A stretch of 64,000 nucleotides of DNA, taken from contig CAJINV010000007.1 of assembly GCA_905178155.1 (NCBI GenBank), positions 3,428,265-3,492,264 of the forward strand, read 5' to 3'. The notes under the pieces are model-generated. The model did no database searches, had not been told where the DNA came from, and worked only from the letters and a program-made list of their open reading frames with translations. The number at the start of each line of letters is the position of its first letter. Positions within the stretch are counted from its first letter, which is position 1. The DNA comes from Amoebophrya sp. A120. Taxonomy: Eukaryota; Protista; Dinoflagellata. This document shows positions 1 through 52,126 of the stretch, in pieces. Position numbers and translations under genes: made by a program.

Positions 1-3000
1 GACTACAATAATTCCGACAAGGAAGACGATCCCTACAGTAACTGGAAGCCGGACGCGCTGGACAATTCCAACTCCTACGATACGGCACTCACCAACTGGA
101 AAAACGAACAATCTTCCGGTAGTTACTTGAACAACGATTCCTCCAATTCAGGAACAGCTACCACGTCGGACTCCTGGAATAACCAGCAAGCGACCGGCGC
201 AGGAGCTGTGACCGCGACGAGTACAACTTCTCGCCGCCAGCAGAAGGAGAAGGAGCGGGAGGAGGATGAGCGACGGGAGGTGGAAGCGGCGAAGCGACTG
301 GCGCAGGAGTTGGAGCAGACGAAGCAGAAACTGGAACAGGAGCGGCTGAAGCGGTTGGAGCTGGAAGAGAAGAAGAAGCAGGAATCGGCGCTGGAAGAGG
401 TGAAACAGCGGAAAATCCGGGAGCAAATTCGAGAGGAAACGGAACGGCTGGAAAAGAAAAAGAAGCAAATCGAGACGGAGTCCAAAGCCATGGAAGTACA
501 GAGACAGAAGGAAGCGGCGGAGTTTAGAAGGTAGTACCGTTTTGATGTTGTCTTCAAGAGCTTTTTAGGTCGTTGTTCACTTGCTTCTACAGAGGGACCA
601 CATGGTTTTTTGATGCAACACAAGATTTCGTGCCATGTGCGCTCCTGTGCAACGTTACTAGCGTGTCAGCACTTATAGTTGTTCTGGTGTGCTCGGCGCT
701 TTTTCTGTTTGTAGTTACGCTCTCGCGAGTTGTTGTTTTTTTCTCCATGCCACAATCACAATGTTCGATCATGAACCAAAAATAAAGAATCCTCCTCGCA
801 GATTGATGAATCACAATGATGAAAAATCGTATATGACCCACGACCTCGCAGGTTGCAACTGAAGCAGCGCGAAGAGTCTCAGCGGAAGGCCCGGGAGGAC
901 CGGGAACGGGAGGAGCGCGAGCTACAGCAGAAGCGACTGGAGCTAGAACAGTGGGAAACCAAGTTGAAGCAGCAGGAGGAGCAGGCAAGGCGAGCTGAGC
1001 GAGAACAGCAGGAGCATCTGCAGCGGCAACACAGTAGTACTGCTGCACCATCTCACAAACAGCTGAAAGTTCCGCTCCCGCCGCCGCCGATACTGCCGTC
1101 CTCCCCACCTCATGCCGATTTGGAGATGGCTTCGCCGCCGTCCGGGGGAGGCTACTCGAGTTATCAAAGTTCGCTCGCGGGCTCACCAGGAGCTTCGATT
1201 GATGTGGAACAGGGTCAGCAACAGCATGCTAGGGCCAGCACGCCAGGTCAGCATCATCCACCCGGAACGAAAGGACAATCCTCCTCGCAGATGGCGGGAA
1301 AAAATAACGCGATGTTAAACAAGGCTGTTGTGACCGCCCCGCCAATGATCTCGCCACCGACAATCGCCCCGCCGAGCATTCCAACGCCACAGATCCCGAC
1401 GCCGCAGAAACATTCTACTTTGGCGGGAGCGCAAAAGGACCAAACTTCTGACAAGAAGGCACCATCTTCTCGCAGTTCTCCCGTCGGGCCTGCTTCAAAT
1501 AAGATGAGCGACTCCGTTGCCTCCACTCCCGCTGCAGCGAAGACCTACGGTGACGAGGACGACGCTGATTACAATAAGAACAGTGGCTCGTGGAAGGATT
1601 ACGGGAACAACAACAAGTGGGAAGATGATGTGGACCGACGGAACTACAAAAACTCGTGGGAAAATAACTACAAGAACGACTATGGATCTTCTGGCTGGAA
1701 AGACTACGATAAGAATGAGGACAGTGGGTACAACAACAGTAGATACAAGCATTACGACGACGATGAAGTAGCCAAGAATTATGCTTGGAACAAGAAGAAG
1801 TACGAAACAAACTACGACAAATACGACGATTTTGACATCAATGAAGTGGAAAGCGACGAAGAGAGAAATGAAAAGCCAGTCCAGAAGAATTATGATTACC
1901 GCGCCGGCAAAACCAAACACCAAGAAGAACCGCCGAAGCCCGAACCTGTGCTCGATTACACCAAGCCTGTGGAGCATTTCACCGGTCCGAAGGCGAAGAA
2001 GAAGGTGAACAACCACTTCGGCGCTCTGATGGCGAGTCAGGATGATAGCATCAGCGACGACGAGGAGGGTGGATCTCTGAACAAGTCGACGAGTAGCAAG
2101 GTTTCCGTCCCGCCACCGACCGCACCGCCGCCCCCAGAATCTTCAAATCTGATGTTGAATCTCACCAATGTAGCAGTTGCTGCTGAGCCAGGTCAAGCAC
2201 AGCCGCGGTTTGCGAAGGTCCGGAACCTGAACGCGCTGGGGGATCAGGACCATGGGGACGAAAGTCCGGATGCGAAGGACTTGCAGGCCCAGCGGATGCA
2301 GCAAAACGTGTCCGCCGCGGCGTTAGCCGCCCGGGAGGCCGAGAAGAAGAAGCAGAAGAAGCTGGCGAAAAAAGAGCTGAAAGACCCTCTGGCGAAGCCG
2401 ACGGCGTTGAAAAAAGGCACCGCTGGATTAGACAACGCGCCGGCGAACTTTGGCGCCACCGGAGCGGACAGAAGGCGGTACGCCCACATTGTGGAAAGCG
2501 CCAAATACGTGCCGCCTGGTACAACAGTCAGACTCATGCTTCCTTTTCTTTTACATTTACGGCGGTAGAAGTCGCGGAGAGTGTTAGTTTCATCGTTGGA
2601 GAAATTTTAATTTTTCTTGTTCATGATATGAGTAGATTGGCGCCTCCCCTTTTGGCCTTATAGGCACATGCAAAGTCCGATAAGCACCCGCCTTTCTTTG
2701 TAGAAGTGGACTGTTTCAACTCTAAATTGAATTATTTCGTAGTACTGCAATTCCAGCAATTTTGTCTTTTTCTTTCCAGGTGCTGAGGAGTACTACGAAC
2801 AATACGAGGAGGACGCGCGGCTTCCGCCGTCTTCTCACCCGCCACCGCCGCCGGCGACCGTTGCTGGAGAGAGCAAGCCGGCGAATTTTTCATCCACCCT
2901 GAGCAACAAAGCAAAGCCAGCCCCTGTCGTCACCGCAAAGTCGTCGAAGGTAGAAGAAGTGTTTTTTCTATGAGCGGGAAATAACAACTTGCGTTGGTTT

Positions 3001-4121
3001 GATACCATAAAAATCCACCTGTTCTCTTGTGTTTCGCCACCTGTTCGATTTGTTGATTGAACGAATTTTTATACATAGTACAAAACGCACCGCGACTTTG
3101 TCCGAACATCAAGCATGCGACGTTGACAGCACGATCCACCACCTCCTGATATTCGCTACATAACACCAAACAGGTCGCCAACCCTGCCGTGTCCGCCTCG
3201 AAGACCGGCACCGCGTCCGCTTGGGGCAGCAGCCAGCAAAACCAAGCTAGGGCATCAACCGTCGGAGGCTCGGGCTCTGCCTGGGATAGCAGCATCGGAA
3301 ACAACCGCGGTCGCGCCGGCTCTACAGGAGACCTTTCGTTTGATGCGCAATTGGAGCTGGCAATGCAGCTCTCTCTGCAGGAACAGAAGCAAAGCACAAC
3401 ATCAACTTCTATGTCGCGCGGGTCGCCGGCGAAAGCGGTTCCCCCGCCCGCCATGCCGCCGGTCATGGGCGCTGCAGCTGGTAATATTAATGCCTTCCCG
3501 GCGGTGCCCTCCAAAGCCGGAGTTCCGCCGCCCGCCAAGCCGGTTCCGTCCACGAAGGCCGGAGGAGGTGCTTCTAGTGCCGGTCAGTCTACGTCAGCGG
3601 GTAGTAAAAGGAAAGCGAATGGAGCCAATGGAACAACGACGAGTGGTCCACCACCACCTCGTGCAGCTGTCAATCCTTCCTCCAAGGAACCTCCGCCGCC
3701 GCCTGCTGCCGCTCCGGCACACCAGCAGGAGCCTTCTCCAAATGCGGCAGAACAAGACGCGGAACAGCTCTTGAAGGAGTTCCTGAGAAACGACCCCTGG
3801 TATGCGGATATGGAGAAAAACCGGAAGAAATTAGACAAGAAGCTCCGGGAGATCACCAAATTAGAGGAACAAGACCTCGCGGGCGCGCACCTGCAGACGA
3901 ACCAGATGCAAAAAATCATGGAGAAGCCAGAAATTGAGCAGCAGTTGAAGAAGTGCGAGGACGAACTGCTTTCGATGGAGGCGGACATGCGGGAACAGCA
4001 GAACATCGCAAAACACTCGGAGGAGCGGGCGGAAAACCGAAACGTGCTGACCACAGCCGACAAGTCGGAAATGACCGCCAGGCAGAAAGCCCGGGCAAGG
4101 CTGAAGGCGAATCGGAAGTGA
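1..4121 (+). CDS. Large low-complexity coiled-coil/Pro-rich protein, 5' end outside the window; UIM-like motif and a C-terminal PYM/eIF2A-like helical segment
   Basis: Frame open from base 1. GT-AG introns 531-851, 2519-2779 and 2950-3173 join ORFs 127-534, 853-2568 and 3189-4121 in frame. Motifs FDAQLELAMQLSLQE (UIM-like) and KNRKKLDKKLREITKLEE...LQTNQMQKI. Confidence 0.75.
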
Positions 4122-4468
4122 TTGGATTCATCACATTCTGGTCGTGATAAATGATTTCTTGTCGTGGGCCGCCAAAGAGTTTTTGCGTAATTATACTGTA
4201 GAATAATTTAGTACAACATCTTCGACAGCGCAAGACCAAGACAAGATCTAGCTGCACCAGCCTTGCGAAGAACACTCGAAAACATCAGCAGGTTCTTTCG
4301 AGTTTGTATAAAATCGATATAATTTCATATCAATAAATCGATGTCACTACATCAATCAGAATCGCTGTCGCCGACATTATTTGGGCGGAAACTTACCTAC
4401 GGAGAACGTTGCCGCTGCACGCGCAGAGATACTTTGGATGACCGGAAACACGAGGCCGCTACTTCTCT

Positions 4469-5640
4469 TATCCCAAAGAAAAAAGCCGACAGGTCAGAAA
4501 AAAAGTAATTAAATAATAACTGTCATTGTCAACAATAAAAGCAAAACAAAACAACAAAAAAAATTGCCGCCATACCATGCGGATTAGCTTCAGGACAGAT
4601 CAGCAATCCGCGCGAATCACGGTGGGACTGTTATTGTCAACAATAAAAGCAAAACAAAACAACAAGAATAAACTGCCGCCATACCATTCGGATTAGCTTC
4701 AGGACAGATCAGCAACCCGCGCGAATCAGGGCGGGACGGCGATCGCCTGCTTTTTTTATTTTTGCGACGAATTTCGCCCATTCGCGCCATACCGTGCGGG
4801 CTGGGTTTCGTAGGGGGTTGCCGGGCTGGGTTTCGTAGGGGGTTGCCGGTTTCGCCAATCCGCACGGCACGGCGCCCGCAGTCGGTTTTGCGGCTTTTGC
4901 GGATTTCCTATGTTCGCGCCATAGCGTGCGGGCTGGCTTTCTGGCGAAGCTGCCGGCTTCGCGAATCCGCACGGCACGGCGGTCGCGGTTAGTTTTTTAA
5001 ATTTTGGCGAGTTTTTTTGTTTCGCGCCATACCGTGCGGGCTGGGCTTCGTACGGGGTTGCCGGTTTCGCCAATCCGCACGGCACGGCGTCCGCCGTCGG
5101 TTTTGCGACTTTTTGCAAATTTTTGCTGTTCGCGCCATAGCGTGCGGGCTGGCTTTCTGGCGAAGCTGCCGGCTTCGCAAATCCGCATGGCGCGGCGGCC
5201 GCGGTTAGTTTTGTGAATTTTGGCGATTTTTTTTCTTTCGCGCCCTACCGCGCGGGCTGGGCTTCGTAAGAGGTTGCCGGCTTCGCCAATCCGCACGGCA
5301 CGGCGCCCGCAGTCGGTTTTGGGACTTTTGGCGAATTTCCTTTGTTCGCGCCATACCGTGCGGGCTGGCTTTCTGGCGAAGCTGCCGGCTTCGCGAATCC
5401 GCACGGCACGGCGGCCGCAATTAATTTTGTAAATTTTGTCGGGTTTTTTCCTTTCGCGCCATACCGTGCGGGCTGGCCTTCGGGCGAAGTTGCCGGCTTC
5501 GCGCATCCGCATGGAACGGCGGCCGCAATTAGTTTTGCGAATTTTGGCGAGTTTTTTGCCTTCACGCCATACCGTGCGGGCTGGCGGTCGCAAGAGGGTG
5601 CCGGCGTCGCGAATCCGCACGGCACGGCGATCGCAATTAT
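4469..5640. repeat. Left arm: tandem ~108-bp units alternating A/B (216-bp higher-order repeat)
   Basis: Landmark CGCGCCAT or a close variant recurs near 4915, 5023, 5131, 5239, 5347, 5455 and 5563. The outermost ~108-bp unit (4521-4628) is duplicated at 4629-4737. Confidence 0.88.
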
Positions 5641-8600
5641 CGCTCCAAAATAGGAAGGCAGGAGCTTGGAAACCGTCGAAGATTTTGCCAGCTTTGCGAA
5701 TGTTCCCGAATGTCCGGAGTCGCCGGATTCAGAGGCGGCGAGGCGTCAAACCCTCGCCAAGCTTTTCAACTTTTGGGAATGCCAAAAATGCGACCCCCTC
5801 CTCTATCTGCGGAAGCTGGCATACTTCAAGCAAATTGCTCCCGCTTCTGGTAATTTTTGCCGAGTTCGTCCGCGGATACTTTCGAATATTCGGAATCGCT
5901 TCAAAATAGGCAGGCAGGAGTTTGGAAACTGTCGAAGGTTTTGCCAGCTTTTCGAATATTCCCGAATATTCGGAATCGCCGGAATCAGAGGCGGCGAGAC
6001 TTCAAATCCTTGCCAAGTTTTTCAACAATTGGGAATGCCAAAAATGCGACCCCCGCCTCTATCTGCGGAAACTGACATACTCAAAATAAATTACTTCCTC
6101 TTCTGGAAATTTTTGCCGAGTTCGTCCGCGGATACTTTCGAATATTCGGAATCGCTTCAAAATAGGCAGGCAGGAGTTTGGAAACTGTCGAAGGTTTTGC
6201 CAGCTTTTCGAATATTCCCGAATATTCGGAATCGCCGGAATCAGAGGCGGCGAGACTTCAAATCCTTGCCAAGTTTTTCAACAATTGGGAATGCCAAAAA
6301 TGCGACCCCCGCCTCTATCTGCGGAAACTGACATACTCAAAATAAATTACTTCCTCTTCTGGAAATTTTTGCCGAGTTCGTCCGCGGATACTTTCGAATA
6401 TTCGGAATCGCTTCAAAATAGGCAGGCAGGAGTTTGGAAACTGTCGAAGGTTTTGCCAGCTTTTCGAATATTCCCGAATATTCGGAATCGCCGGAATCAG
6501 AGGCGGCGAGACTTCAAATCCTTGCCAAGTTTTTCAACAATTGGGAACGCCAAAAATGCGACCCCCGCCTCTATCTGCGGAAACTGACATACTCAAAATA
6601 AATTACTTCCTCTTCTGGAAATTTTTGCCGAGTTCGTCCGCGGATACTTTCGAATATTCGGAATCGCTTCAAAATAGGCAGGCAGGAGTTTGGAAACTGT
6701 CGAAGGTTTTGCCAGCTTTTCGAATATTCCCGAATATTCGGAATCGCCGGAATCAGAGGCGGCGAGACTTCAAATCCTTGCCAAGTTTTTCAACAATTGG
6801 GAATGCCAAAAATGCGACCCCCGCCTCTATCTGCGGAAACTGACATACTCAAAATAAATTACTTCCTCTTCTGGAAATTTTTGCCGAGTTCGTCCGCGGA
6901 TACTTTCGAATATTCGGAATCGCTTCAAAATAGGCAGGCAGGAGTTTGGAAACTGTCGAAGGTTTTGCCAGCTTTTCGAATATTCCCGAATATTCGGAAT
7001 CGCCGGAATCAGAGGCGGCGAGACTTCAAATCCTTGCCAAGTTTTTCAACAATTGGGAACGCCAAAAATGCGACCCCCGCCTCTATCTGCGGAAACTGAC
7101 ATACTCAAAATAAATTACTTCCTCTTCTGGAAATTTTTGCCGAGTTCGTCCGCGGATACTTTCGAATATTCGGAATCGCTTCAAAATAGGCAGGCAGGAG
7201 TTTGGAAACTGTCGAAGGTTTTGCCAGCTTTTCGAATATTCCCGAATATTCGGAATCGCCGGAATCAGAGGCGGCGAGACTTCAAATCCTTGCCAAGTTT
7301 TTCAACAATTGGGAACGCCAAAAATGCGACCCCCGCCTCTATCTGCGGAAACTGACATACTCAAAATAAATTACTTCCTCTTCTGGAAATTTTTGCCGAG
7401 TTCGTCCGCGGATACTTTCGAATATTCGGAATCGCTTCAAAATAGGCAGGCAGGAGTTTGGAAACTGTCGAAGGTTTTGCCAGCTTTTCGAATATTCCCG
7501 AATATTCGGAATCGCCGGAATCAGAGGCGGCGAGACTTCAAATCCTTGCCAAGTTTTTCAACAATTGGGAACGCCAAAAATGCGACCCCCGCCTCTATCT
7601 GCGGAAACTGACATACTCAAAATAAATTACTTCCTCTTCTGGAAATTTTTGCCGAGTTCGTCCGCGGATACTTTCGAATATTCGGAATCGCTTCAAAATA
7701 GGCAGGCAGGAGTTTGGAAACTGTCGAAGGTTTTGCCAGCTTTTCGAATATTCCCGAATATTCGGAATCGCCGGAATCAGAGGCGGCGAGACTTCAAATC
7801 CTTGCCAAGTTTTTCAACAATTGGGAACGCCAAAAATGCGACCCCCGCCTCTATCTGCGGAAACTGACATACTCAAAATAAATTACTTCCTCTTCTGGAA
7901 ATTTTTGCCGAGTTCGTCCGCGGATACTTTCGAATATTCGGAATCGCTTCAAAATAGGCAGGCAGGAGTTTGGAAACTGTCGAAGGTTTTGCCAGCTTTT
8001 CGAATATTCCCGAATATTCGGAATCGCCGGAATCAGAGGCGGCGAGACTTCAAATCCTTGCCAAGTTTTTCAACAATTGGGAGCGCCAAAAATGCGACCC
8101 CCGCCTCTATCTGCGGAAACTGACATACTCAAAGTAAATTACTTCCTCTTCTGGAAATTTTTGCCGAGTTCGTCCGCGGATGCTTTCGAATATTCGGAAT
8201 CGCTTCAAAATAGGCAGGCAGGAGTTTGGAAACTGTCGAAGGTTTTGCCAGCTTTTCGAATATTCCCGAATATTCGGAATCGCCGGAATCAGAGGCGGCG
8301 AGACTTCAAATCCTTGCCAAGTTTTTCAACAATTGGGAGCGCCAAAAATGCGACCCCCGCCTCTATCTGCGGAAACTGACATACTCAAAGTAAATTACTT
8401 CCTCTTCTGGAAATTTTTGCCGAGTTCGTCCGCGGATGCTTTCGAATATTCGGAATCGCTTCAAAATAGGCAGGCAGGAGTTTGGAAACTGTCGAAGGTT
8501 TTGCCAGCTTTTCGAATGTTCTCGAATATTCGGAATCGCCGGAATCAGAGGCGGCGAGGCTTCAAATCCTTGCCAAGTTTTTCAACAATTGGGAGTGCCA

Positions 8601-9045
8601 AAAATGCGACCCCCGCCTCTATCTGCGGAAACTGACATACTTAAAATAAATTACTTCCTCTTCTGGAAATTTTTGCCGAGTTCGTCCGCGGATACTTTCG
8701 AGTATTCGGAATCGCATCAAAATAGGCAGGCAGGAGTTTGGGAAGTGCCGAAGGTTTTGCCAGCTTTTCGAATATTCCGAATATTCTCGAATATTCGGAA
8801 TCGCCGGAATCAGAGGCGGCGAGAATAGAAATCCTTGCCAGGTTTTTCAACGCTTGGGAATGCCAAAAGTGCGGCCCCCATCTCTATCTGCGGAAGCTGA
8901 CATACTTAAAATTAATATATTGCTTCGCCCTCTGGAAGTTTTGCCGAGTTCGTCCGCGGATACTTCCGAATATTCGGAATCGCCCGAATCAGAGGCGGCG
9001 AGGCTTCAAATCCTTGCCAAGTTTTTCAACGCTTGGGAATGCCAG
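5641..9045. repeat. 256-bp tandem satellite, 13 units plus a partial unit
   Basis: CAAAATAGG landmark at 5646, 5902, 6158 ... 8462, 8718 (exact 256 spacing). Central units are nearly identical; terminal units are diverged. Confidence 0.97.
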
Positions 9046-9047
9046 AG

Positions 9048-10109
9048 ATGGTATGGCGCGAAAAAAAAAACCCGCCAAAATTTACAAAACTAATTTCGGC
9101 CGCCGTGCCGCGCGGATTCGCGAAGCCGGCAGCTTCACCAGAAAGCCAGCCCACACGCTATGGCGCGAACAAAGAAAATCCGCCAAAAGTCGCAAAACCG
9201 ACTGCGGGCGCCGTGCCGTGCGGATTGACGAAGCCGGCAACCTCTTACGAAGCCCATGGCGCGAAAGGAAAAAACCCGCCAAAATTTACAAAACTAATTG
9301 CGGCCGCCGCGCCGTGCGGATTTGCGAAGCCGGCAGCTTCGCCAGAAAGCCAGCCCGCGCGGTATGGCGCGAGCAAAGGAAATTCGCCAAAAGTCGCAAA
9401 ACCGACTGCGGGCGCCGTGCCGTGCGGATTGGCGAGGCCGGCAACCTCTTACGAACCTGCACGGTAAAGCGCAAATGGGAAAACTCGCGGAAATTTACAA
9501 AAATAATTGCGGCCGCCGTGCCGTGCGGATTCGCGAAGCCGGCAGCGTCGCCAGAAAGCCAGCCCGCACGGTATGGCGCGAACATAGAAAATTCGCCAAA
9601 AGTCGCGAAACCACTTGCGGGCGCCTTGCCATGCGGTTTGGCGAATTCGGCAAACTCTTACGAAGCCCAGCCCGCACGGTATGACGCGGAACAAAAAAGC
9701 TCGCCAAAATTTGCAAAACTAATTGCGACAGCCGTGCCGTGCGGATTCGCGAAGCCGGCAGCTTCACCAGAAAGCCAGCCCGCACGCCATGGCGCGAACG
9801 TAAAAAATTTGCAAAAAATGGCGAGACCGACTGCGGGCGCCGTGCCGTGCGGATTGGCGAAACCGGCAACCCCTTACGAACCCCAGCCCGCACGGCATGG
9901 CGCGAATAAGCGAAATTCGCCACAGAAATGATTTAGGCGGGCGATCACCGTCCCACCGTGATTCGCGCGGATTGCTGATCTATCCTGAAGCTAATCCGCA
10001 TGGTATGGCGGCAATTTTTTTTGTGGTTTTTTTTTGCTTTTATTGTTGACAATAACAGTTATTATTTAATTATTTTTTTTCTGACCTGTCGGCTTTTTTC
10101 TTTGGGATA
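9048..10109. repeat. Right arm: ~108-bp units in inverted orientation relative to the left arm
   Basis: ATGGCGCG-type landmark near 9053, 9160, 9256, 9364, 9573, 9682, 9789 and 9897; these units are reverse complements of the left-arm units. Confidence 0.88.
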
Positions 10110-11521
10110 TCTCTTAGTTTGTACAAGAGCCACAACGTCGAAAGTCGACTTCGCCATGAGCGTCGTCACTTAAACACATCGACATCCACATGCATTCCTA
10201 TTCGTAGTCCCTGCTGCTTGCGGCACAAACGTAATATTCTTTCACCGCAGGATGAGGGGAAGACGAAACATTACCAATCGGTTTTCATTTTCAAAAAACG
10301 AGGACCTGCTCGAGAGGAACTCCTTGCTGGTACTCTTTATTGAGTAGCGCACCGAGTTTGTTTCGTATACTACAATCTTTCACACGGTACAATCCAATAT
10401 GCATTTTTCAAATCTTCAATTAAAGTTTGCAAGCTGGCGAGTTGTAGACAGCATATTTACTGTTAGCAACATTATAGCAATGTACAACAACTTGGACGGT
10501 ACCAGAGTTGATGGTGGAGACGTAAAAACGGACGAGACAGCCCCGAACACATGAAATGTGTGGTTTTGGCGAGACCGAGAGCTTGATGTTGAGGCAGTAG
10601 TAGAGCAAATTTTGACCATTACTCAGCGTCAGCGTACATCACGACTACAAAGTACAACAGCAAGTACACTACGTTTTCTTTTGTTGCATGTTTTGCATGT
10701 GCAGCTTTCGCCATTGTGGCTTTCGAAGATCATGAGCTTGCTGCAGGACGACACGATGAAGATTTTGCCGTGTGCTTGATTCCACACAGTTAGCTAAATG
10801 ACATAACCCAGAGCTGCAGGCATTTTGCTATTGGATTTGAGCAGGAGCACCCGCATTGTTTTCGAACAATTTTCACGTATTCGAAATGAGATTGACCTCG
10901 AGGATTGATGGCCTACGCCTATCGTAAAGGGAAACAATACGTAAGTTGTACTAGATTTCATGGTTGTATATCACACGCATATGAATATCATCACGAAGCA
11001 TTCAAGAAAAAAGGCAAGCATGGGAAGCGAAAGGCAGAAGCCGCAAGAAATTGTTCGTTGTATCAGTGGCGGCAAGAAAACGAATCTGTCACTGAAGACA
11101 CCGCCAGCGCCGCTATTTTGCTTTGCTAGTTTCGAAAATTGAGGATCTCTTCGTGGTTTTTCTCTATGGCGCTAATGCGAAGGCGAAGCGGCAAAAATCT
11201 TCAAAGGGGGTGTATGACCATTGCAAAACGATCATCATTTTTACTGCAGGCTTTGATGGTGCTCCTGTCTTTTATTCACTCGTTTTGGGTTTAGAATGAG
11301 ATGGAGATGGACGTTTTAATGCAGTGGCATCAAATTCAAAAAGCGTGTGCTGTCCTTCTTCTTGTCTACGTAGTGGTAGTTCAACGAGAGCAAGTTCCAT
11401 TTCGTCCCCTCCACTTCGTGCCTGCGTACTAGGTAGTTGTGAATTACCATTTTTGGAAGCGAGTTGTGTGCTAGCAGTAGCACCGCCATATTAATCGACC
11501 ATCTCCACCACGACCAAAAGG

Positions 11522-13599
11522 ATGTCCGGTGCAGGTCTGAATTTCCACAATGGAACCTCTCTCTCGTCCAGCTCGCACCTAGACATCGCGAGACGGTCGC
11601 TGGAAGAATTCGAGCGCGCCAATTTGATTTCTCTGGCGGGCCAGGAACTTTTAGACCACTTGCGGTCGCAAACCAAGCACGCGAAACAGGTGCCGAAGCA
11701 CCTCCGGCAGATGTACTTCCCCTCCTACGAGGTGTTCACGGAAAGATCCAGCATTACGGAGTTCTCCAAAAACCGGGTGCTGCGGTTGAAACAGGTGAAA
11801 GCGGACGTCACCGAGGAGGACCTGTATTGCGGGATCTGCAAGGTTCTGGTGGCGGAGATTCGGGACCAGCAGAAGAAGTTCGACCTGCAGCAGCAGTGCC
11901 CCTACATGGCGGAGAGACTGACTAACATGGGCGGGGGGAAAAAGAAGAAAAAGAATCACGCGTTCTCCTCCTCCGGCTCGGAGGATAACGAATCGGGCGG
12001 TGAAGGAGGGTATGCATTGCAAAAATAGCATCGTACCAATCGCAATTTTTTCCAATAGGAAAAACAAAGGCGACATTATTTGGAACGCTTAGTAGCTGAT
12101 TACAAAACGGATTCATCGTGATGCAGAAGTATTTCAGTTAGAAGTTTTACGAACTTTTACTTTAGTACGACTGCTATTTTGCAGTGGATCAGAGAAGAAA
12201 TCTAACCGAAGAAGAGAGGGAGGCGCGGAATGAGAGGAAAAAGGCGGATAACTGGTTTCAGGTACTAGGACTGGAACCGAAACGTTGCAGGTTGCATCTA
12301 TGAGTATGTTGACAAGCGACAGCTCACTTTTCGACTGTATCTTCGTTTCGAAATAAAAATCCAGGTTCGCGTCGGTAAGATGACCAAGGAAGAGTGCCAG
12401 TTTGCCGTGGAGGGAGGTAACAGCAACAAGCCCCAGTTGAAGGAAGTTGTCACCGTGCACATCTCTATCCGGGAGGAGAAAATCGACGAGCTGCTTCCCC
12501 TTCTGAACCACGGCTTCGAGCGTTGGGACCGGTCTTACGACAAGATTCTCTCCCCCGCGAAATCCTGGAAGCTAAAAGCCGACTGGGGCAGCTACATCGT
12601 CGTGGACGAGATGCACGCGGCGAAATTGGCCTCCGCCGCGGAAACGCTGAAGCAGTTCCAGGCGAAAAAAGCGACGAAGCGGTTACTGGCCGGGCTGGCA
12701 GACTCTCCGGGGGACGCGACCACCGCAGTACCGACCCCGGAAGACCACAATTTGCGCACCAGCAACACGAGCAGTGGGGGTCTATTGAGAGGAAACATTC
12801 CCCCCTCATTTTGAAAAGGTGTGTTTCCAAAAATTTGTGTTGCGGATTTGAGGTCACAGATCACGTCTGTCTTGCAAGAAGACAATGGCAGAAGCTTCCG
12901 GACCATTATGGAAGCGATTTGTCATGATGTTGGGCCTAAAGGGGGGCCGTTTGCCATGCTGAACTACTAGACCCATAGCCATACGCCGCTACCTAGCCTG
13001 GGGATCTGGCCGCAGTGCCTCTCTGCAATACAAAGCTGATTTGTGGTCACAAATTAGCATCACAGGCTCACAAATCAGATATCAGGTGGATCACAGGCTC
13101 ACAAATCAGCATCACAAATTTCCGTTTTGATATGGGGAGGGGGGATTTTTCATTTTGATAGGGTCCGACGAGTGACCACGACCGTAGAGGCGGTCGCAGA
13201 AGGCGCACGAGCGACGAACTGATCGACAACGAAGAAGGGCGGAGGGACAGCATCGGCGCCTTAACTGCGCACAGCAACGAGCACAGCCTGGCCGGGCGAG
13301 GCAGTCGTAGTGCATCAATGAATATCGGAGTCCACGGAGGTATGATGGGTAACGCGATATTAAACGTCGAAGGGCAACACAGACACCAAAATCCGAGCTC
13401 AGCATCGAATTCGCCCGATCTGGAAGATGAGGACAACGGGAGCTTCCACAGCTCACTCGACGATGATGGCCAGGAAGGCGCGGGGTGTAGTGATGAAAAC
13501 GACGAGAACTCTGACCAAGATTCAAACGCAGAGCGCGGCTCGGACAGTGAATCGGAATCGTCTTCCGATGTTGACTCGTCTTCGGACGAAGAAGAGTGA
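11522..13599 (+). CDS. Hypothetical protein (possible degenerate RRM-like segment, acidic C-terminus)
   Basis: GT-AG introns 12000-12184 and 12262-12364. Removing the 12783-13160 element plus one GGGTC copy joins ORF 12380 in frame to ORF 13318-13599 (...SSGGPTSDHDRRG...). Confidence 0.7.
12783..13160. mobile_element. Introner-like element / non-canonical intron, TSD GGGTC
   Basis: TAT...ATA ends; GGGTC at 12778-12782 and 13161-13165; imperfect TIR (TATTGAGAGGAAACATTCCCCCC vs reverse complement TATCAAAATGAAAAATCCCCCC); short CACAAATCAG-type repeats at 13048-13120; frame restored on excision. Confidence 0.8.
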
Positions 13600-17738: not shown

Positions 17739-18282
17739 AGATTTCTGTCGACCTCCGGTAGTAGAAGCCGCGGGCCCGCCTCAATAGTAGGCAATCCACA
17801 TGATTCTCTGTGAAAAATGCACCATTATGAAGGTGAGGACCTCCTGAAATGAACGACTTTTATTAACTTTGACGCGAATGTCGTGCGGGTGCGACTTAAC
17901 TTCCACGAGCACTTACACGATGAAGTCATGCGACGCGACGGTTGCGTCGTTGCCTTCGTTCCACAGCTCAGGTGTTCAAACCAGAGTTGGCTGTGATTGT
18001 AGTTTATCCATGCTCCTGTGTAGTCCCATGAAATTGAAGATTTCACCGCCCGTGATGTTGTTTCATCTTCAGGCGCAGTTCTTCTTTTCTTCGGCACTGG
18101 ATAAAGCAGCAGGACGACGTAGTCGTGCAAACACTGGCGGTGCCACACCTGTGTAGTCTCCGCTGGAGGTTTTCTTCTTCTTGTGACATACGCCTAGCCT
18201 TCCCCCTGAGCAGCCCGAGCGACAGTAACATTCGAGCTGCACCCTCGTCTTTGAGCTTATCCCCTGTGCGAGTAAGGTAAAA

Positions 18283-19785
18283 ATGGCTTCAGCGGCGGTA
18301 ATTCTCCCCCCGTCCGACGAGGAGGACCGCCTGGGGCACGTGCCCAACCCGAATTCCGTTGCGATTGCGGGTTGGGCGGAAGACAAGGGCATGCGACAAG
18401 AGATGGAGGACGGATTTGTGTTTGTCGACGATTTTATGCAAGACAAATGGGGCTTCTTCGCGATCTACGACGGACACGGGGGCCAGGACGCGATGCAATA
18501 CTGCGTGGACTACCTGCACCAAAATCTCTTCCTCGAGTTGAACAAATTGGAATTTTGCAGTTCTGCGGCATCACAAGGCTTTGATGCAGCTGGCTTGATA
18601 CTCAGCAACAATTCCGCCGAGGAAGCGGCCGGCCACGCCGGCGGCTCATCTTCCTCCGCGTGTTCCGGCAGCAACAGCTCGTGCGAGGAGAAAGACGATT
18701 TATTTTGCGACCCAAATAGCCGAGGGTTTTTGTGTTGCAGCCAGCGGGAGGTGGCGAACGCGTTGATCTTCGCGTTTAAGACGACAGACATCAACCTGAT
18801 CGAGCTGGGCGTGCAAGCGGGCGCCACGGCTTGTGCCTGTTTGCTACTGGACCAAATTGTCCCAGATGAAGAGGATATTGGCAACGGAAATATGAATCGA
18901 ACAACTGCACAGGCGATACGAGAAGCGAGATTGAGTCAGAAGCCAACGCGACACTTGTACACAGCGCACTTAGGGGATGCAAGGGCCGTGTTGTGCCGAG
19001 CGGGCTTGGCGGCAAGGCTGACGAACATGTCGGATCATAAGGTAGTACAATTTTATGCATACAGCTGTGAGTTTGCTTGAGCTTGTTTATGTTTTGTCTT
19101 TGTGCATGAATAAGAATATGAACTTGCCCAGTTCATCGGTTACATGTCGTATCGTGATGTGTTAGATTAGAAGTTGTGTGCACTTTTACTTTTTCTTCTT
19201 CAATTGAAACTATCAGGCCAGCGACGAGGGCGAACGCGAGCGCGTGCACAAAAACGGTGGCACCATCATTTTCGACCGGGTGAACGGCATGCTAGCGATC
19301 GCGCGAGCGTTTGGTGATTACCAGTTGAAAACGCCTTCGTTGCCCAGAGACGTGGTCAGCAACGAACCCGACGTCACCGCCACGGAACTGACAGAGGAAG
19401 ACATGTTTGTCATACTCGCTTGCGACGGACTCTGGGACGTTTGCACGTAATTCCTTGTGATGTAATCGATATCGCAATAGTTCGTGTTGCAGCATGCATT
19501 GCATGCTACTTTTCTCATCTTGTGAATACACTGTACCATTGAGCAGGCCCCCTAGTTGATGTTGGGAAGTTGTAGGAGAAGCATGTTGACACAAAAAAAT
19601 AAAACTCGAATTCCAGCGACCAAGAGGCAGTTAATACCGTTCTGGAAACGCTGACCGAGCTGCATTTTCTCGGCGTCACAAGTAATCACCCAAGGAAAGC
19701 CGAAATTTGCAGCCGAGTCCTGGTCGAAGCAGCGTTGGCGAGGAACAGCACGGACAATATCACCGTACAGGTGGTGTTTTTCTGA
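18283..19785 (+). CDS. Protein phosphatase 2C (PPM family)
   Basis: Motifs GMRQEMED, FAIYDGHGG, AHLGDARAVL, DHK, GMLAIARAFGD, ILACDGLWDV, STDNITV. GT-AG introns 19042-19216 and 19447-19616. Confidence 0.93.
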
Positions 19786-23793: not shown

Positions 23794-26700
23794 ATGATGC
23801 AGGATCAACGGAATTTGTCACAACCAAGAAGTCGATCACGAGCAGGAGCTCGAAACCGAACGAAGGACCAGCATGTTCCACCACTTAGCGGAGATGTACC
23901 ACGTCAAGAGCATCACACGGCGGGACGACCACCACGAGAGAACCATCCACTGGACGATCCCAAGACGCGGTTCGAAATGGCTCGCTCCACACTTAATCCT
24001 TCCCCATCGACGTCCATGAAATTTCGCGGTCGCGCTCCCAGCCGGTCCCCGGGCGGCCTGATTGCAACCGGGGCGCGTTGCGGCGTGTACTTGCTGTCAG
24101 GTAGCGCTGTTCTCGTGAAAGCGCAGGGCGCGATCGATTCCGACGCAGCGCTGAGAGGAGGTGGCGAGACTGCGGATGATAGGACTGGCGGTCGCGATGT
24201 TCGCTCCTGGAGAAGTGACGAGATCGGCACGACGAGCACAACGAGGGCGGCTATGCCCACTTCATCTTTCACCGAAGATGGCGCAGCTCTCTCCCAAAAT
24301 GAACAGCTTGGAGGTGGATTGGACCGTCGTCGTGGGCAGGTTACTCGGCGGAAAAAGAAAAACCTTCGGGGCGCTGCTAAGCGAGTCGAGGAACACGACG
24401 AAAAATCAAACACCGCGGCGACGGTTCCTGCCGGATTGCTGCAGATTGGCACGAAGAAGGGGGCGGCTGTGAGAGAAAGTCAAATTTCGGACCAGTCGAG
24501 TGCACAAAATGATTTGGTGGAGGAAGCGGAAGGGGTGCCGGCGGATGGTGGCACGGCCGCAAACTCTGACGCATCTTCGAGCTCTTTCGCAGTGCGTCAT
24601 ATGGTACCTGCTCCTCGTCCTGAATCTCTTCCCCCTGTACTAGTACCAGCACGGCATGATCTCCAGCATATGGTACCTGCCCGTCAGGCATCAGAACCAG
24701 CACTAGTACCGTATTTTCGACCTCCAAGCCAACCCTTCAATTATTTGCAGAGTTCCAACAGTGGGTTAGTCGCCGCAGGACCACCAGCTCTACCACAACC
24801 AGCTCGTCCAGCTCCAGACCGTGTAATGCTTCCTGCTCCATTTCTACTTCCTACCGACGCAGCCCCGGGCGCTGCACTTGGTGCACCTCCTGCTGCGGTC
24901 GTGGTTCCACAACAGCCGCAGCAGGTTGTACAACTACAACCACTTCCTGCGGGCGCTCTTCTCGCACCTAATGGATTCGCGCCAGCGATTGCAGCAGCAC
25001 CTCCGTTTACTTTCACCGTCGATCCCGTAGACCAGTTGAAGCGGCTGATACAGGAACACTTTGAAAAGGAGATTATGCGGAAGTGGACACAGAACATCGA
25101 GAAGGAGGAACAGCAGAGGGTGCAGGAAGGAACGGACGACGAGCACGAAGATTTTACGGAGAGGCGGAGGTTCTACGAGAATAAAGTGAAACCCCATCTG
25201 TTGACTGATTTTTTTAGAAACAGTATCGTGCTTGCACAGGAAGAGCGCGATATTACCAACGGCAGGCCGTTGTATGTGACCGAGATCGGGTACGACGCCA
25301 CTAAAGATGACCAGCAACAGCAACCACGGGAACGTTTTACAATAGTGAAGGAATTGGGGCAAGGAGGTTATGGGGCTGTGTACGCCGTTCTGGGAACAAA
25401 GGCCACGGTAAGACATGACGGGACACAGACTACAGAAGCTCTGAAAGACATGGGCATTGAAAGCGGCGCCAAGGAAATCGTAAATCATCTTGTGGCAGAT
25501 TTTCTCACATCTGGCGTTTCAGAAGAAAATCAAGAAAGGGATTGTCTGCCAAAGCTCTGGAAAGTTCTCTGCTACAGCAACAAGCCAGGCAGAATCGCCT
25601 TTATGCATTACAATTATGTCTGCGTCTGGGATGATGCAAGTTGGTGATGCAGTCTTTCTGGTGTCGTCCTCGCACAACATCAATAAAAATCTGTCCTGCA
25701 CAACAAGCAGCACGATTTGCTGTCTCAATGTCACGCTAAAAGTTGTGATGTGAAGCATCATGATAGGCAACATTAAGGAGCCTCTTCAAAACCTGATATT
25801 TTGCATTGGCATGCATGGCAGACCATTTGCGTGATCAACAAAATGCATGGAGGATGACGGTAATTTTCGTACTGAGATTACACGTTGTATTTACTCCGAA
25901 AAATGCATGAATATGAAAAACACGCCCACTCGTCCAGACCCAGACATGTTGCTGGGTTATAGTCTTGGTGATGGAGCAATTTGCCGGAACAGTTGATGGC
26001 TTACTGACACAGGCTCTAGGCCAGCCGAAATGGGATGACTCTGTTGTGACAAAAATGAGCAACCGTCTCGGAAATGGGGGAGGACTCCCGATGAAGGGGT
26101 TGGCTCACATCGCGAGGTGCTTTGCGCAGTGGCACAAGCACGATTTTTTTCATGGAGACTTCCACGCTGATAATGTTGGGATGAAGCACAATGGGCAACT
26201 CATCATGCTGGACTTCGGCTACGCCCAGTAAACCACGTCAAACTTCTCGCAGAGTCTGGCATTCAATTTCTTTGTTTTGTGCCTCAGTTGCGTGATCTAC
26301 TCGTACTCGCCCACCTAGATTTTATTCTGAGCCCGCACACACCTATTGATTCTGTACTTTAAGTTCAAGTTTAACATTTTTCCTCATCTTTCCACGTCTT
26401 CACAACTTAGCATCCGGAGTAGGATGATCTGGAAGGGTTCATCTTTATTTATGTGTGTCCAAAGCGTGGCGGGCGCGGAAATTGAAGCAGAGAATCCTTG
26501 CTCCGGACTCGATGCCGCAAAAAAGGCAAAACAGAAACTAGCTGGGTAATAGAGTAAAACTAAAAGCTGCAACTGGGTCACTTGCTACTTTCCGGCTCTG
26601 CGTGCAGGACGACGAATTTTGCTGCCACAGATTCCTTTCGGGTATTGCAGACTTTCCGGACTATACGCAGATGTTTGCTATGCACATGAAGACTCTGGAG

Positions 26701-40000: not shown

Positions 40001-40939
40001 CATGAAGCATCTCGCCTCCGAATTGTTCATCAACACCACTCTCGTCGTCACTTGTTATCCCGTCGCCCTCGTGTACTTCACAGAACGATGCTGTCCTCCA
40101 GTATCGATGAAGAAACCTTTCGCATCTTCGTCTTTCTGACTGAGATTTCGTAATTGTCGTTTTGATGTCTCTGGAGAGAGAGGGAAAGACGTGTTAGAGT
40201 CATACTCGTTTCCGTCAGCAAAGAAGATGCTATAGCTTACTTTTTGGCTTCGTGATACGGCAGGAGAGAAACTTCCGAGTGGTTGTTTTTGTTGCGCATC
40301 TCGTGCACCAGCTGGTTCTTTGATTAAGGCGTTGAGGAGCAGGATTGCGAGCGTTGTCGGGACCTCATCAGGGTGAACTACAGGGGCAGTGGAAAAGCAA
40401 AATCAATTGAAATGGAAATCAAATCAAAACAAAAAATAGTTTTGTCGACGAAGTGTCTTCTAGATTTGGTAGATCAAGATCTACGAAACTTCTAGTACTC
40501 TCTGCAATTATTTTACAAATTTTGATTTTCAAGGCCAAAGTCGCCAACTACCTGTTTCTCGTGCTAAAAATCAATGAACTCAAATTTTTGTTGAACTAGA
40601 ACTTGCACTTGCTGTTGCTCCTGCGGACAAAGTTTTCTTGCGTATCAAGAAGAGGAGGTTTTGGTTTATTTTACAGTATACATTTTCCGCCTTACCTTCT
40701 TCGACCGCTGGCTACAAACAAGCTCCTCTGCCGCACACATTTTCCGATTTTTACCAGTTGATCTTGCATCGTCATCTGCTTGGACACGGCCGTAACGACA
40801 AGCAGTGACTACAGGATCCAGCACTACTTTCATCTTCAGCACCTCTGGACGGTTCCTGTCCTGTCCGCAGCCGCGAGGGCATCAAGACAAGTTGCGCAGT
40901 ACTGCGGCTCCAGCACGGCAAGTAGAATCCGCCAGCACC

Positions 40940-50030: not shown

Positions 50031-52126
50031 ATGACGGACCCCGAGCACATCTCTCCCAATGTGCTGAAAAACTACGATGTGCTTGGGAAAGTGTCCCGCG
50101 GCAATTACGGGCTCGTGTGGCGGGCGAAAGCGTTTGCGACGGGGGAAAAAAAGTACGCGATTAAGCGGGTCATTAATGCTTTCAAGAACGCCGTGGACGC
50201 GCAGAGGACGTATCGGGAGATCACACTGCTGTTGGAGCTGAACGGCCACGCGAACATCGTGGAGATTTTTGATGTCGTCAAGGTACAGAATGAATGTTAG
50301 TACAGTTTTATTGTCACTTTATGCGGCAGTCCAGTATGCCATGATGCAGGATTTTTGAAGAAGTTTTTTCCGCACATCAGCGCGATTATGATTACCAACT
50401 ACACATACTACAGGATTACTACGACTTGGACATCTACGTTGTCCTCGAATACATGCCCGCGACGCTGGCAAACATTCTGAAAAACACGCGACTGTCCGAC
50501 GTCCAGCTTTCCTTCATGATCTACCAAACCCTGCGCGCGTTGCTCTACATCCACACGGGGGGCATCGTCCATCGCGATTTGAAGCCCCAGAACATTCTGA
50601 TTAACGCGGACTGTCGCTTGAAAATCTGCGATTTTGGGTTAGCGCGAACGCTGTACGAGTCCCCGGAAGACGAGGTCACGCTGCGGCGCCAGCGGCAGGC
50701 CGCGGCGCTGAAGTCCACGCATGCGCGCCTGTCCGACGATGACAACGAAAACCAGAAGGAGCGGATGGAGCCGCAGTACCAGATTGAGGAAGAGGGGTTT
50801 TTGTCCAACTACATCGCGAGCCGGTGGTACCGGGCGCCGGAGGTGATGCTCGGGTCAACCACGTACGACTTCTCCTTCGACATGTGGGCGGCGGGGTGCG
50901 TGTTCGCGGAAATGTATCTGCCGAATCCGTTGTTCAAAGGTATTAACAGCTGATTCTCAGCCTGTTATGCGAAAATGTAAATGTTGTGACTAAGTTATGC
51001 GAGTTGATGAGAAATGATCTTAATCTATGACATTCTTCACACCCGCAGGTACCTGCATGTTCACGCAGTTGGAGGCGATTTACCTGCATCTGGGAAAACC
51101 CGACCGGTTTGACATTATGACGATGGACGCGCCGTACGCCGAGCAGATGTTCGAAGCGACCTTGGTGAACAAGAAGGAGCCCCTGTCCTCGCTGTTCCTA
51201 CCCCGCCAAGTCCCGGTTTCCAACGTGCCCAACTGCCCCACGGTGACGGAGAACCCAACCGTGGCGGAGAATCCGGAGGAGTTGTTGGATTTTCTGGAAC
51301 TGCTCCTCCTTTGGTCCCCCCCGAAGCGTTATCAAATGCAAATATGTCTGGGTCTGGAAGATTCCGAGTTTTCTCATGCAGTTTCTCCAAGCTCCACTAA
51401 GTCTGGAATGCAGGACCTAGCATCACAGGATCTGCAGCCCCTCTGTGATGCCTGTTCTGCATGAGAAATGCCCCCTCAGCATGGCCAGAAGTGGGCACCT
51501 TTTGCAAGTCACGCAACACAGATTTTTGTATGATGCGCAACATGCATCACAAGTCCCAACCTTCCAGACCCAGACATTTTTACAATCCATAAGCGTATGA
51601 CGGCGGAGGAGGCCATACGACACCCTTTCGTCTCCGCCTACCACAATCCGGATGACGAGCCGCGGTTCCGGGAGCCCCTGGAGCTGCTATCCACTGCAAA
51701 TATGTAGTCTGGGTTTGGAACCTTGTGACGCTAAAATGTGACTGGTGGGCGCACTACAATACGCAGCCAATCATGACAAATTTTTGAGCTGCTATTCTGT
51801 TTCGGTTTCGGCATGGCAAACTGCGTGTTTGCACGACAGGCAAGAGGCCCTTGTCCTGCTTATGCATCACAGATTTGCGAGTCATTCCAGACAAGCATGA
51901 CAAAGTTGCATCCACCGTATCCAGACCCAGACATATTTGCAATGCATAGCTGCCCCTCGCGGACGACTGTCTCTTCACGGTGAATGATTACCGAGACCGG
52001 ATTTACGCGGACGTGCTGCAGATTCCGCGGGCGGTGACCCGGGTTGCGGATAAGGAGGTGGAGTTGCACCAACAACGGGTGGCGGACAAGTTGTTGCAGG
52101 AGGAAGAGGAGGCGGATGAGGATTAG
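50031..52126 (+). CDS. MAP kinase, ERK7/MAPK15-like
   Basis: [52 protein letters not shown] introns 50283-50413 and 50940-51048. Two non-canonical introns whose removal gives [14 protein letters not shown]...HNPDDEP...ELPLADD...DYRDRIY. Confidence 0.92.
51330..51591. mobile_element. Introner-like element / non-canonical intron, TSD AGCGT
   Basis: TAT...ATA ends; AGCGT at 51325-51329 and 51592-51596; core ATGTCTGGGTCTGGAAG pairs perfectly with CTTCCAGACCCAGACAT. Confidence 0.93.
51688..51948. mobile_element. Introner-like element / non-canonical intron, TSD GCTGC
   Basis: TATCCACTGCAAATATGTAGTCTGGGTTTGGA pairs with TCCAGACCCAGACATATTTGCAATGCATA; GCTGC at 51683-51687 and 51949-51953. Confidence 0.93.

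What the first reader, a model, noticed from the sequence alone, without database searches (positions are those of the whole stretch)
4469..10109. Giant 5.6-kb foldback element shares termini and TSD length with the small intronic elements
Seen: ends TATCCCAAAGAAAAAAG...CTTTTTTCTTTGGGATA with TCTCT duplicated. The terminus resembles the small elements (TATGCAAAGAAAAAAG at 48536, TATCCACAGAAAAAAA at 36820, TATCCTGAGTAAAAA at 41176). The architecture is ~1.1-kb inverted arms of 108-bp units around a 3.4-kb satellite, with no coding capacity. Inference: this is a Foldback-like member of the same superfamily and links the introners to a cut-and-paste DNA transposon spanning a 50-fold size range. 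Long-armed relatives are the best place to look for the autonomous transposase.
Basis: partly seen in the sequence, partly recalled or inferred. Interest (0 to 1): 0.85.

Follow-up and report, generated by a model that had tools for sequence, protein, structure and literature searches.

The report
Giant foldback transposon missing from mRNA
A 5.6-kb non-coding transposon with kilobase mirror-image arms around a satellite core sits just after a gene's stop codon in a likely Amoebophrya marine parasite and is missing to the base from spliced-transcript contigs, so it is likely cut out as an intron by the same unexplained route as the organism's much smaller transposon introns.

Summary
Observation confirmed. 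Window 4469-10109 has a perfect TCTCT duplication, a 166-bp 96% terminal inverted repeat, 1.17/1.06-kb arms of 108-bp units and a 13.3 x 256-bp core; none of 16 interior ORFs scanned hits Pfam. Both ends fit TAT-N7-AAA, the published signature of Amoebophrya A120 introners, shared by 7 of 8 small neighbours. New here: contigs from three spliced-transcript-like runs (two samples, one study) join the two flanks, dropping the element plus one duplication (5,646 nt) from a 3' UTR with no GT-AG in any register, while DNA contigs run from both flanks into the element. It is most likely a giant non-autonomous introner that is spliced. An empty allele in the RNA samples, or a reverse-transcriptase skip, is not excluded. 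No transposase was found, and the giant lacks the small elements' internal motif, so 'same superfamily' rests on end grammar only. The introner class is published, and a 2025 supplement lists an unclassified 5,627-bp palindromic satellite-bearing A120 model that may be this family. This scan noted the small-element system and a spliced 3.1-kb element elsewhere in this genome, not this family. New variant of a known kind; interest 0.5.

The parts
4464..4468 (+). left target-site duplication TCTCT
4469..4634 (+). left terminal inverted repeat; starts TAT-N7-AAA; 50-bp tip plus first 109-bp unit
   Evidence: I11, 166 nt, 96%
4519..4737 (+). two tandem 109-bp subterminal units (the right arm has one)
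4787..5638 (+). left array of 108-bp units in A/B alternation (216-bp period)
5639..9050 (+). satellite core, 13.3 head-to-tail copies of a 256-bp unit, one orientation, unrelated to the arm units
9051..9943 (-). right array of 108-bp units, inverted, with short deletions (204-216-bp period)
9944..10109 (-). right terminal inverted repeat ending GGGATA
10110..10114 (+). right target-site duplication TCTCT
3174..4121 (+). last coding exon and TGA stop of the host gene (no Pfam hit); the insertion lies 342 nt after the stop
4122..4463 (+). 3' UTR, part before the element; continuous in X3 and X5 contigs
10115..11001 (+). 3' UTR, part after the element; the same X3 record and an X4 record continue here and stop at 10993 and 11001
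12783..13160 (.). small TAT..ATA element, TSD GGGTC, very high-copy family; skipped with 5 nt in X3 and X4
25602..25961 (.). small TAT..ATA element, TSD 4/5; skipped with 5 nt in X3
51330..51591 (.). small element in a protein kinase gene, TSD 5/5; removal with 5 nt keeps the frame open
51688..51948 (.). small element in the same kinase gene, TSD 5/5; removal with 5 nt keeps the frame open

Best explanation
This is a non-coding foldback-shaped DNA transposon with the same ends and 5-bp duplication as the organism's small transposon introns; it lies in a gene's 3' untranslated region and is missing, with one duplication copy, from transcript contigs, so it is likely spliced out as a 5,646-nt non-GT-AG intron. 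Shown: the anatomy, the end grammar, both filled junctions in DNA contigs, other ends of the family at other sites, and the precise join in transcript contigs. Inferred: (1) it was inserted by a DDE transposase supplied in trans that makes a 5-bp staggered cut. An integrase-like enzyme of the Ginger/IS3EU neighbourhood is my first guess (about 0.45), a hAT5-type enzyme second (0.3). (2) The arms and core grew by tandem amplification inside the element, which did not matter because only the tips are read. (3) After transcription the arms pair and bring the two junctions together, and the machinery that removes the small elements cuts at the ends whatever lies between (109 to 5,641 bp in this window). 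I favour a relaxed spliceosome cutting 1 base before TAT and 4 after ATA (about 0.5 given splicing); this junction cannot show the register.
For: Join: X4 record 15 starts on the window at 10110 and its loose letters equal window 4434-4463. X3 record 9 and X5 record 10 run 3172-4470 with no differences and their loose letters equal window 10117-10146. Record positions of X3 record 9 (7,608 nt, depth 33.6 in both lays) give exactly 5,646 nt removed. These runs are transcript-like: they skip GT-AG introns at 2947-3172, 12008-12194 and 12258-12362, X4 shows a poly-A end at 13996, and they skip the small elements at 12783 (383 nt) and 25602 (365 nt) by the same length + 5 rule. DNA: X1 contigs run from each unique flank into the element without a difference (2700-4498; 10081-12840) and keep both small elements. 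In one search, whose loose-end table was not cut, neither X1 nor X8 shows a flank-to-flank end. Other copies: the exact terminal 31-mer has depth 280 against 24.5 for the flank, three other flanks appear, and a variant at 10058 is in neither arm (depth is only a rough guide, perhaps 5-10 elements). None of the 8 equivalent cut registers gives GT-AG, GC-AG or AT-AC. Predicted end duplex -277.6 kcal/mol over about 175 nt. A decayed TAT-type element at 12011-12190 is now a spliced GT-AG intron with the 1+4 geometry. Published A120 introner ends are TAT + 7 nt + at least 3 A with 3-5-nt direct repeats (PMC7789003 section 11); fam38 has a 5-bp TSD, TA/TA ends and integrase-like ORFs (PMC12130899).
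Against: DNA (sample S1) and transcript-like runs (S2, S3; one study) are different samples, and I saw no contig in X3, X4 or X5 that carries a filled junction, so it is not shown that the cells giving the RNA had the insertion. X3-X5 are RNA by guess and by their spliced joints, not by record; the one recorded raw RNA run laid (X9) did not map (1 read). X1 reaches only 30 and 29 letters into the element, just under the tool's 31-letter bar for bridging, and may be the source of the assembly. A strong hairpin with a 7-nt direct repeat is the classic setting for reverse-transcriptase template switching (PMC4176328 passages). The giant has 0 exact and 1 one-mismatch GCATGACAA against 8 and 24 in the small elements. 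One other end in X1 matches only from the second base. No transposase domain in the window. Both cut sites would lie at the base of a near-perfect duplex, which is awkward for a spliceosome; U1 was not detected in these genomes (PMC7789003 section 10).
Confidence: 0.72

Rival explanations
1. Insertion polymorphism: the element is a real transposon, but the cells that gave the transcript contigs carry the empty site, so nothing is spliced.
For: DNA and transcript-like runs come from different samples. The join is exactly the pre-insertion sequence. The duplication is perfect and central core units are nearly identical, as for a young insertion. No filled junction was seen in X3, X4 or X5.
Against: The listed long transcript records carry no difference from the window over several kb, as for one clone. 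Two small elements present in the same DNA are skipped the same way in the same runs. No empty-site end in X1 or X8, although contigs drop rare variants.
Confidence: 0.15
2. Reverse-transcriptase artefact: the mRNA keeps the element, and the enzyme jumps across the stem at the 7-nt direct repeat during library making.
For: Very stable predicted stem plus direct repeat; this combination gives false introns in human data (PMC4176328 passages). In a UTR nothing forces real removal.
Against: The join sits in single unbranched contigs of 4.8-7.6 kb at depth 26-34 in three runs; a partial skip should break them at the junction (inference from how such assemblies work). Small elements of the same grammar interrupt a kinase frame that is open only after removal, so real removal exists in this organism.
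Confidence: 0.07
3. It is spliced, but by a structure-reading endonuclease and ligase that cut at the base of the stem, not by the spliceosome (a variant of the best explanation; the figure is given splicing).
For: No conserved dinucleotides in any register; the sites lie at the base of a long duplex; U1 not detected in Amoebrophrya genomes; loop size seems irrelevant. Euglena nonconventional introns are a base-pairing precedent with unknown machinery (PMC12501133 abstract).
Against: A decayed element with weak pairing is removed as a GT-AG intron at the same offsets. End pairing of the small elements varies from -31 to -57 kcal/mol per 50 nt. Most spliceosome proteins and U2, U4, U6 are kept.
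Confidence: 0.3
4. The giant belongs to a different transposon lineage from the small introners, and the ends look alike because only elements with spliceable TAT..ATA ends persist in transcribed DNA.
For: No homology past the tip; internal motif absent; TA..TA ends occur in IS3EU/GingerRoot, 5-bp TSDs in hAT5, and A120 introners were assigned to diverse TE types.
Against: The same TSD length and the A-rich positions 11-13 and 15 are shared, and 1 of 1,066 background TAT sites scores higher.
Confidence: 0.15
5. Assembly artefact or chimera (fold-back read) that created the inverted structure.
Against: The arms differ by 12% with unit gains and losses, unlike a read folded on itself; both outer junctions are in DNA contigs; the flanks join precisely in transcript contigs.
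Confidence: 0.03

Closest known systems
Introner elements (IEs) of Amoebophrya sp. A120 (Farhat et al. 2021, PMC7789003; read abstract, sections 5, 10, 11, 12, passages of discussion and methods, supplement passages)
   Same: TAT + 7 nt + AAA ends, short direct repeat, non-canonical boundaries, no transposase inside, repeated in the genome, absent from transcripts.
   Different: That study analysed introns of 40-1000 bp with 8-20-nt inverted repeats. This one is 5,641 bp with kilobase modular arms and a satellite core, and lies in a 3' UTR. It lacks the internal motif of the small elements here.
A120 introner families fam25 and fam38 (Gozashti et al. 2025, PMC12130899; read section 6, passages, and 56 of the 58 A120 rows of supplementary file 8; figures and sequences not seen)
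   Same: The fam25 row (4 intron copies, class Unknown) lists models of 1,474, 4,033 and 5,627 bp, the last with 'termTIR 5623' and satellites: the size and shape of this element. fam38 is annotated '5-bp TSD, TA/TA termini'.
   Different: No sequence was visible, so identity with fam25 is untested; the text read does not describe a foldback or UTR splicing. fam38 is about 810 bp and has integrase-like ORFs, which the giant lacks.
Foldback elements such as Tetris (Dias et al. 2014, PMC4079207; passages)
   Same: Long modular inverted arms with internal tandem repeats, non-coding middle, non-autonomous, linked to satellite arrays and to a MITE sharing the tips.
   Different: Tetris has 8-10-bp TSDs and is placed in Mutator; its satellite comes from the arm repeat, whereas here the core unit is unrelated to the arm unit. 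Foldback is a shape that arises in several superfamilies. No splicing in the passages read.
IS3EU/GingerRoot (PMC10045372, PMC12730594; passages) and hAT5 (PMC12730594; passage)
   Same: IS3EU/GingerRoot end TA..TA; hAT5 makes 5-bp TSDs.
   Different: IS3EU/GingerRoot TSDs are usually 6 bp, not 5. No transposase is available here to place the element in either.
Euglena nonconventional introns (Nomura et al. 2025, PMC12501133; abstract and opening paragraphs only)
   Same: Non-GT-AG introns with base-paired ends and unknown machinery.
   Different: Different lineage and different end code (CAG/CTG pairing a few bases inside the ends).

Membership tests
Amoebophrya A120 introner elements | ends TAT + 7 nt + at least 3 A | tested here: met
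   both ends match; 14 of 16 small-element ends; 3.6% of 1,066 background TAT sites (definition)
Amoebophrya A120 introner elements | 3-5-nt direct repeat at the boundary | tested here: met
   TCTCT 5/5
Amoebophrya A120 introner elements | absent from transcripts without canonical splice sites | tested here: met
   join in X3, X4, X5; 0 of 8 registers canonical; splicing versus empty allele not separated
Amoebophrya A120 introner elements | repeated in the genome | tested here: met
   other flanks and variants at the tip in X1 and X8; whole copies not seen
Amoebophrya A120 introner elements | 40-1000 bp (the length window of the published analysis, not a biological limit) | tested here: not met
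   5,641 bp; window stated in methods passage
Amoebophrya A120 introner elements | host organism is Amoebophrya A120 | tested here: inconclusive
   end motif, mostly + strand genes and GC near 51% fit; no marker gene was searched
Gozashti 2025 A120 fam25 | sequence identity to the family consensus | not testable with these tools
   only size and structure notes visible
Foldback architecture | long inverted arms built of tandem subrepeats around a non-coding middle | tested here: met
   16 of 24 interior ORFs scanned, 0 Pfam hits, the other 8 are copies of a scanned one
Mutator-type foldbacks (Tetris) | 8-10-bp TSD | tested here: not met
   3/8, 3/9, 4/10 matches (definition)
IS3EU/GingerRoot | TA..TA termini | tested here: met
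IS3EU/GingerRoot | usually 6-bp TSD | tested here: not met
   2/6 for the giant, 1-4/6 for the small elements
IS3EU/GingerRoot or fam38-like | integrase-like DDE transposase in the element or a cognate partner | not testable with these tools
   none inside; no whole genome held
hAT5 | 5-bp TSD | tested here: met
hAT5 | hAT transposase with cognate ends | not testable with these tools
   none in the window; a different A120 family (fam135) hit hAT5/hAT6 terminus models

The most novel reading that the evidence does not exclude
Amoebophrya removes any RNA segment bounded by a short TAT-N7-AAA end pair and a 5-nt repeat, whatever its size or position: a 5.6-kb kilobase-armed foldback is excised as cleanly from a UTR, where no reading frame selects for it, as a 109-nt insert from an exon. 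That would be a length-independent, end-programmed splicing route that makes a whole transposon superfamily harmless and lets it carry satellite arrays into genes.
Probability: 0.4. Interest if true: 0.78.

Novelty: new variant of a known kind. Interest (0 to 1): 0.5.

Why it matters
How Amoebophrya removes tens of thousands of non-GT-AG introns is an open question in the papers read. This locus is a natural extreme case: 52 times the length of the smallest element in the window, a near-perfect 166-bp end stem, none of the internal motif, and no coding constraint. If it is truly spliced, the signal must be in the tips and flanking repeat. The excised product would be large and unique enough to catch as lariat, circle or linear RNA, which separates spliceosome from endonuclease-ligase. 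It also shows a route by which satellite arrays can sit inside transcription units at no cost. It does not identify the transposase.

Tried and rejected
Exact-pattern scans found nothing: tip in metagenome contigs and viral contigs, arm unit in metagenome contigs. Rfam at gathering thresholds: 0 hits in the window, so the core is not a known RNA gene array. Pfam on 169 ORF references (24, 145; stop-to-stop ORFs of about 110 aa or more outside the element, shorter ones not scanned): no transposase, integrase or recombinase. No run is listed as an RNA holder on record; recorded RNA run X9 did not map. X3, X4 and X5 show no cover on the element tips (4530-4625 was skipped by the tool); a hole in contigs proves nothing by itself. 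A TAT..ATA candidate at 10235-10939 with a perfect 5-bp repeat was dropped: it fails the end motif, has single-copy depth and is kept in X3 and X4. 33765-34056 was dropped as weak (16/30, no motif). A degenerate RYATGRCR pattern is about 18-fold denser in both the arms and the small elements than in the rest of the window, but I wrote it after seeing both sets and the arm hits are tandem copies, so I do not count it. The frame test is blurred by neighbouring introns and was clear only for some elements. TSDs of other copies could not be read because contigs show single ends. Literature: 'Amoebophrya' + 'foldback' gave 0 papers; 'Amoebophrya' + 'introner' 14; with 'non-canonical introns' and 'splicing' since 2021, 5; only open-licence papers are searched. 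Supplementary file 3 of PMC12130899 was the wrong table; 2 of 58 A120 rows, all figures and any consensus sequences were not seen and may bear on novelty.


Full report
1. Observation. The element runs from 4469 to 10109 (5,641 bp) between two copies of TCTCT, and its first 30 bases are exactly complementary to its last 30. The terminal inverted repeat is 166 nt at 96%. The arms (4469-5638 and 9051-10109) match at 894 of 1,015 aligned bases. Each is built of a 50-bp tip, a 109-bp unit (two copies on the left, one on the right), a linker and 108-bp units alternating in 216-bp pairs. The core is 13.3 copies of a 256-bp unit in one orientation, unrelated to the arm units, with near-identical central copies and diverged outer ones. 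Of 24 stop-to-stop ORFs of 100 aa or more inside, 16 were scanned with no Pfam hit; the other 8 are repeats of a scanned one. Rfam finds nothing in the window.

2. The small elements. A scan for TAT..ATA with a 5-bp duplication found 9 short candidates against 0-2 in each of 20 simulated sequences. I kept 8 and dropped 33765-34056 as weak; a further 705-bp candidate at 10235 was dropped on read evidence. For the giant and all 8, 5 bp is the duplication length that fits (5/5 in five, 4/5 in four). The giant's two ends and 14 of 16 small-element ends match TAT-N7-AAA, against 3.6% of other TAT sites, and only 1 of 1,066 background TAT sites outscores the giant on a matrix built from the small elements alone. 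That motif is the published signature of Amoebophrya A120 introner elements (PMC7789003 section 11). The organism is therefore likely Amoebophrya of that type; I ran no marker-gene test. The kinship stops at the tip: BLASTN gives only a 12-bp match to a small element, and GCATGACAA, present 8 times exactly and 24 times with one mismatch in the small elements, occurs 0 and 1 times in the giant.

3. Reads. Eleven runs were listed and six laid. DNA contigs of X1 run from the left flank 30 bases into the element (2700-4498, depth 24.5) and from 29 bases inside it through the right flank (10081-12840, depth 31.5) with no differences. This is just under the tool's 31-letter bar, and X1 may be the assembly's own source. 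The exact terminal 31-mer has depth 280, three other flanks appear in X1 and X8, and one variant is in neither arm, so the family has other members, perhaps 5-10 by a rough reading of depth. One other end matches only from the second base. Their duplications could not be read.

4. The main result. X3, X4 and X5 behave as spliced transcripts: they skip three GT-AG introns, X4 has a poly-A end, and they skip the small elements at 12783 and 25602 by length + 5. In X4 a 4,817-nt record starts at 10110 and its preceding letters are window 4434-4463. In X3 and X5, records of 7,608 and 7,555 nt run to 4470 and continue with window 10117 onward. The X3 record appears in both lays, and its coordinates give exactly 5,646 nt removed: the element plus one duplication. 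The site is 342 nt after the stop codon at 4119-4121, all three frames of the joined sequence are interrupted by stops, and the records end near 11000, so it is read as a 3' UTR. The junction can slide over 8 positions; none gives GT-AG, GC-AG or AT-AC. The join also shows that the two flanks belong together, which rules out a chimera of two loci. The three runs represent two samples of one study, and the DNA is a third sample.

5. Mechanism. Shown: anatomy, end grammar, filled DNA junctions, extra copies, precise absence from transcript contigs. Inferred from established transposon biology: insertion by a DDE transposase in trans with a 5-bp staggered cut, then growth of arms and core by tandem amplification. 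Inferred: removal from pre-mRNA by the machinery that removes the small elements, reading only the ends, which the arms bring together (predicted duplex -277.6 kcal/mol). In favour of a relaxed spliceosome, the spliced GT-AG intron 12010-12194 is a decayed TAT-type element cut one base before and four after it (19/30 end identity), and the 25602 junction keeps the left copy's second base, which is compatible with that register. Earlier scan notes give the same register and reading; they are unreviewed and I tested them only this far. Against it, the sites lie at the base of a long duplex and U1 was not detected. Rivals are an empty allele in the RNA samples (0.15), an RT skip across a hairpin with a 7-nt repeat (0.07; PMC4176328 passages) and mis-assembly (0.03). 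I saw no filled junction in the transcript-like runs, so the first cannot be excluded.

6. Comparison. It works like, and by ends, repeat and removal qualifies as, an Amoebophrya introner, outside the 40-1000-bp window of the 2021 analysis. It has foldback shape like Tetris but fails the 8-10-bp TSD of Mutator-type foldbacks. TA..TA ends fit IS3EU/GingerRoot but their 6-bp TSD does not; 5 bp fits hAT5. The 2025 introner survey notes an A120 family with a 5-bp TSD, TA/TA ends and integrase-like ORFs (fam38), which is my first candidate for the enzyme class. Its supplement also lists under fam25 an unclassified 5,627-bp model that is inverted along its whole length and holds satellites. That may be this family; no sequence was visible, and my reading of that table's columns is partly a guess because the headings were incomplete. 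No paper in the library holds both 'Amoebophrya' and 'foldback'.

7. Earlier scan notes. Many windows of this genome carry notes on the small-element system, one on a spliced 3.1-kb element and one on a 13-kb hAT element. No look-alike of this element's end was indexed and nothing near this place.

8. Verdict. Real feature; first reading partly supported; new variant of a known kind. The added value is the evidence that a 5.6-kb foldback is dropped precisely from a UTR, which would make the removal independent of length and of coding constraint. The transposase remains unidentified. Interest 0.5; 0.78 if the end-programmed, length-independent route is confirmed (probability 0.4).

Noticed in passing
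window 12010-12194: A spliced GT-AG intron whose ends look like a decayed TAT..ATA element (19/30 end identity, motif kept on the left), cut 1 base before and 4 after it: a likely introner turned canonical intron.
   Followed up: partly
window 12783-13160: Small element of a very high-copy family: summed contig depth up to about 100,000 against 25-31 for single-copy DNA, with over 200 different right-hand flanks; this copy differs from the majority at many positions.
   Followed up: partly
window 10235-10939: TAT..ATA with a perfect 5-bp repeat (CGTAA) next to the giant, but without the A-rich motif, single-copy and kept in transcript contigs: chance or a dead relic, and a useful negative control.
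   Followed up: yes
window 51330-51948: Two small elements interrupt the 3' end of a protein kinase gene (Pfam Pkinase upstream; MAPK-like by recall); removing each with 5 nt gives one open frame.
   Followed up: partly
window 43749-43766 (minus strand): An end-like motif that outscores the giant's end, inside a probable canonical intron, with no partner end found.
   Followed up: no
X1 record 2: Another end of the giant's family is flanked by sequence carrying the small elements' GCATGACAA motif, suggesting insertion into a small element.
   Followed up: no
window 29396-33685: A 1,429-aa GC-rich, proline-rich ORF with five 63-bp tandem repeats (29674-29996) and no Pfam hit.
   Followed up: no
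window 37100-40700: About 3.5 kb of AT-rich sequence with only short ORFs and no Pfam hit; possibly decayed mobile DNA.
   Followed up: no
window 53169-55109: LRR plus CS domain gene matching DNAAF11 (dynein assembly factor) profiles; neighbours include Maf (55808-57037), PP2C (18229-19080) and a KH-domain gene (35167-35973).
   Followed up: no
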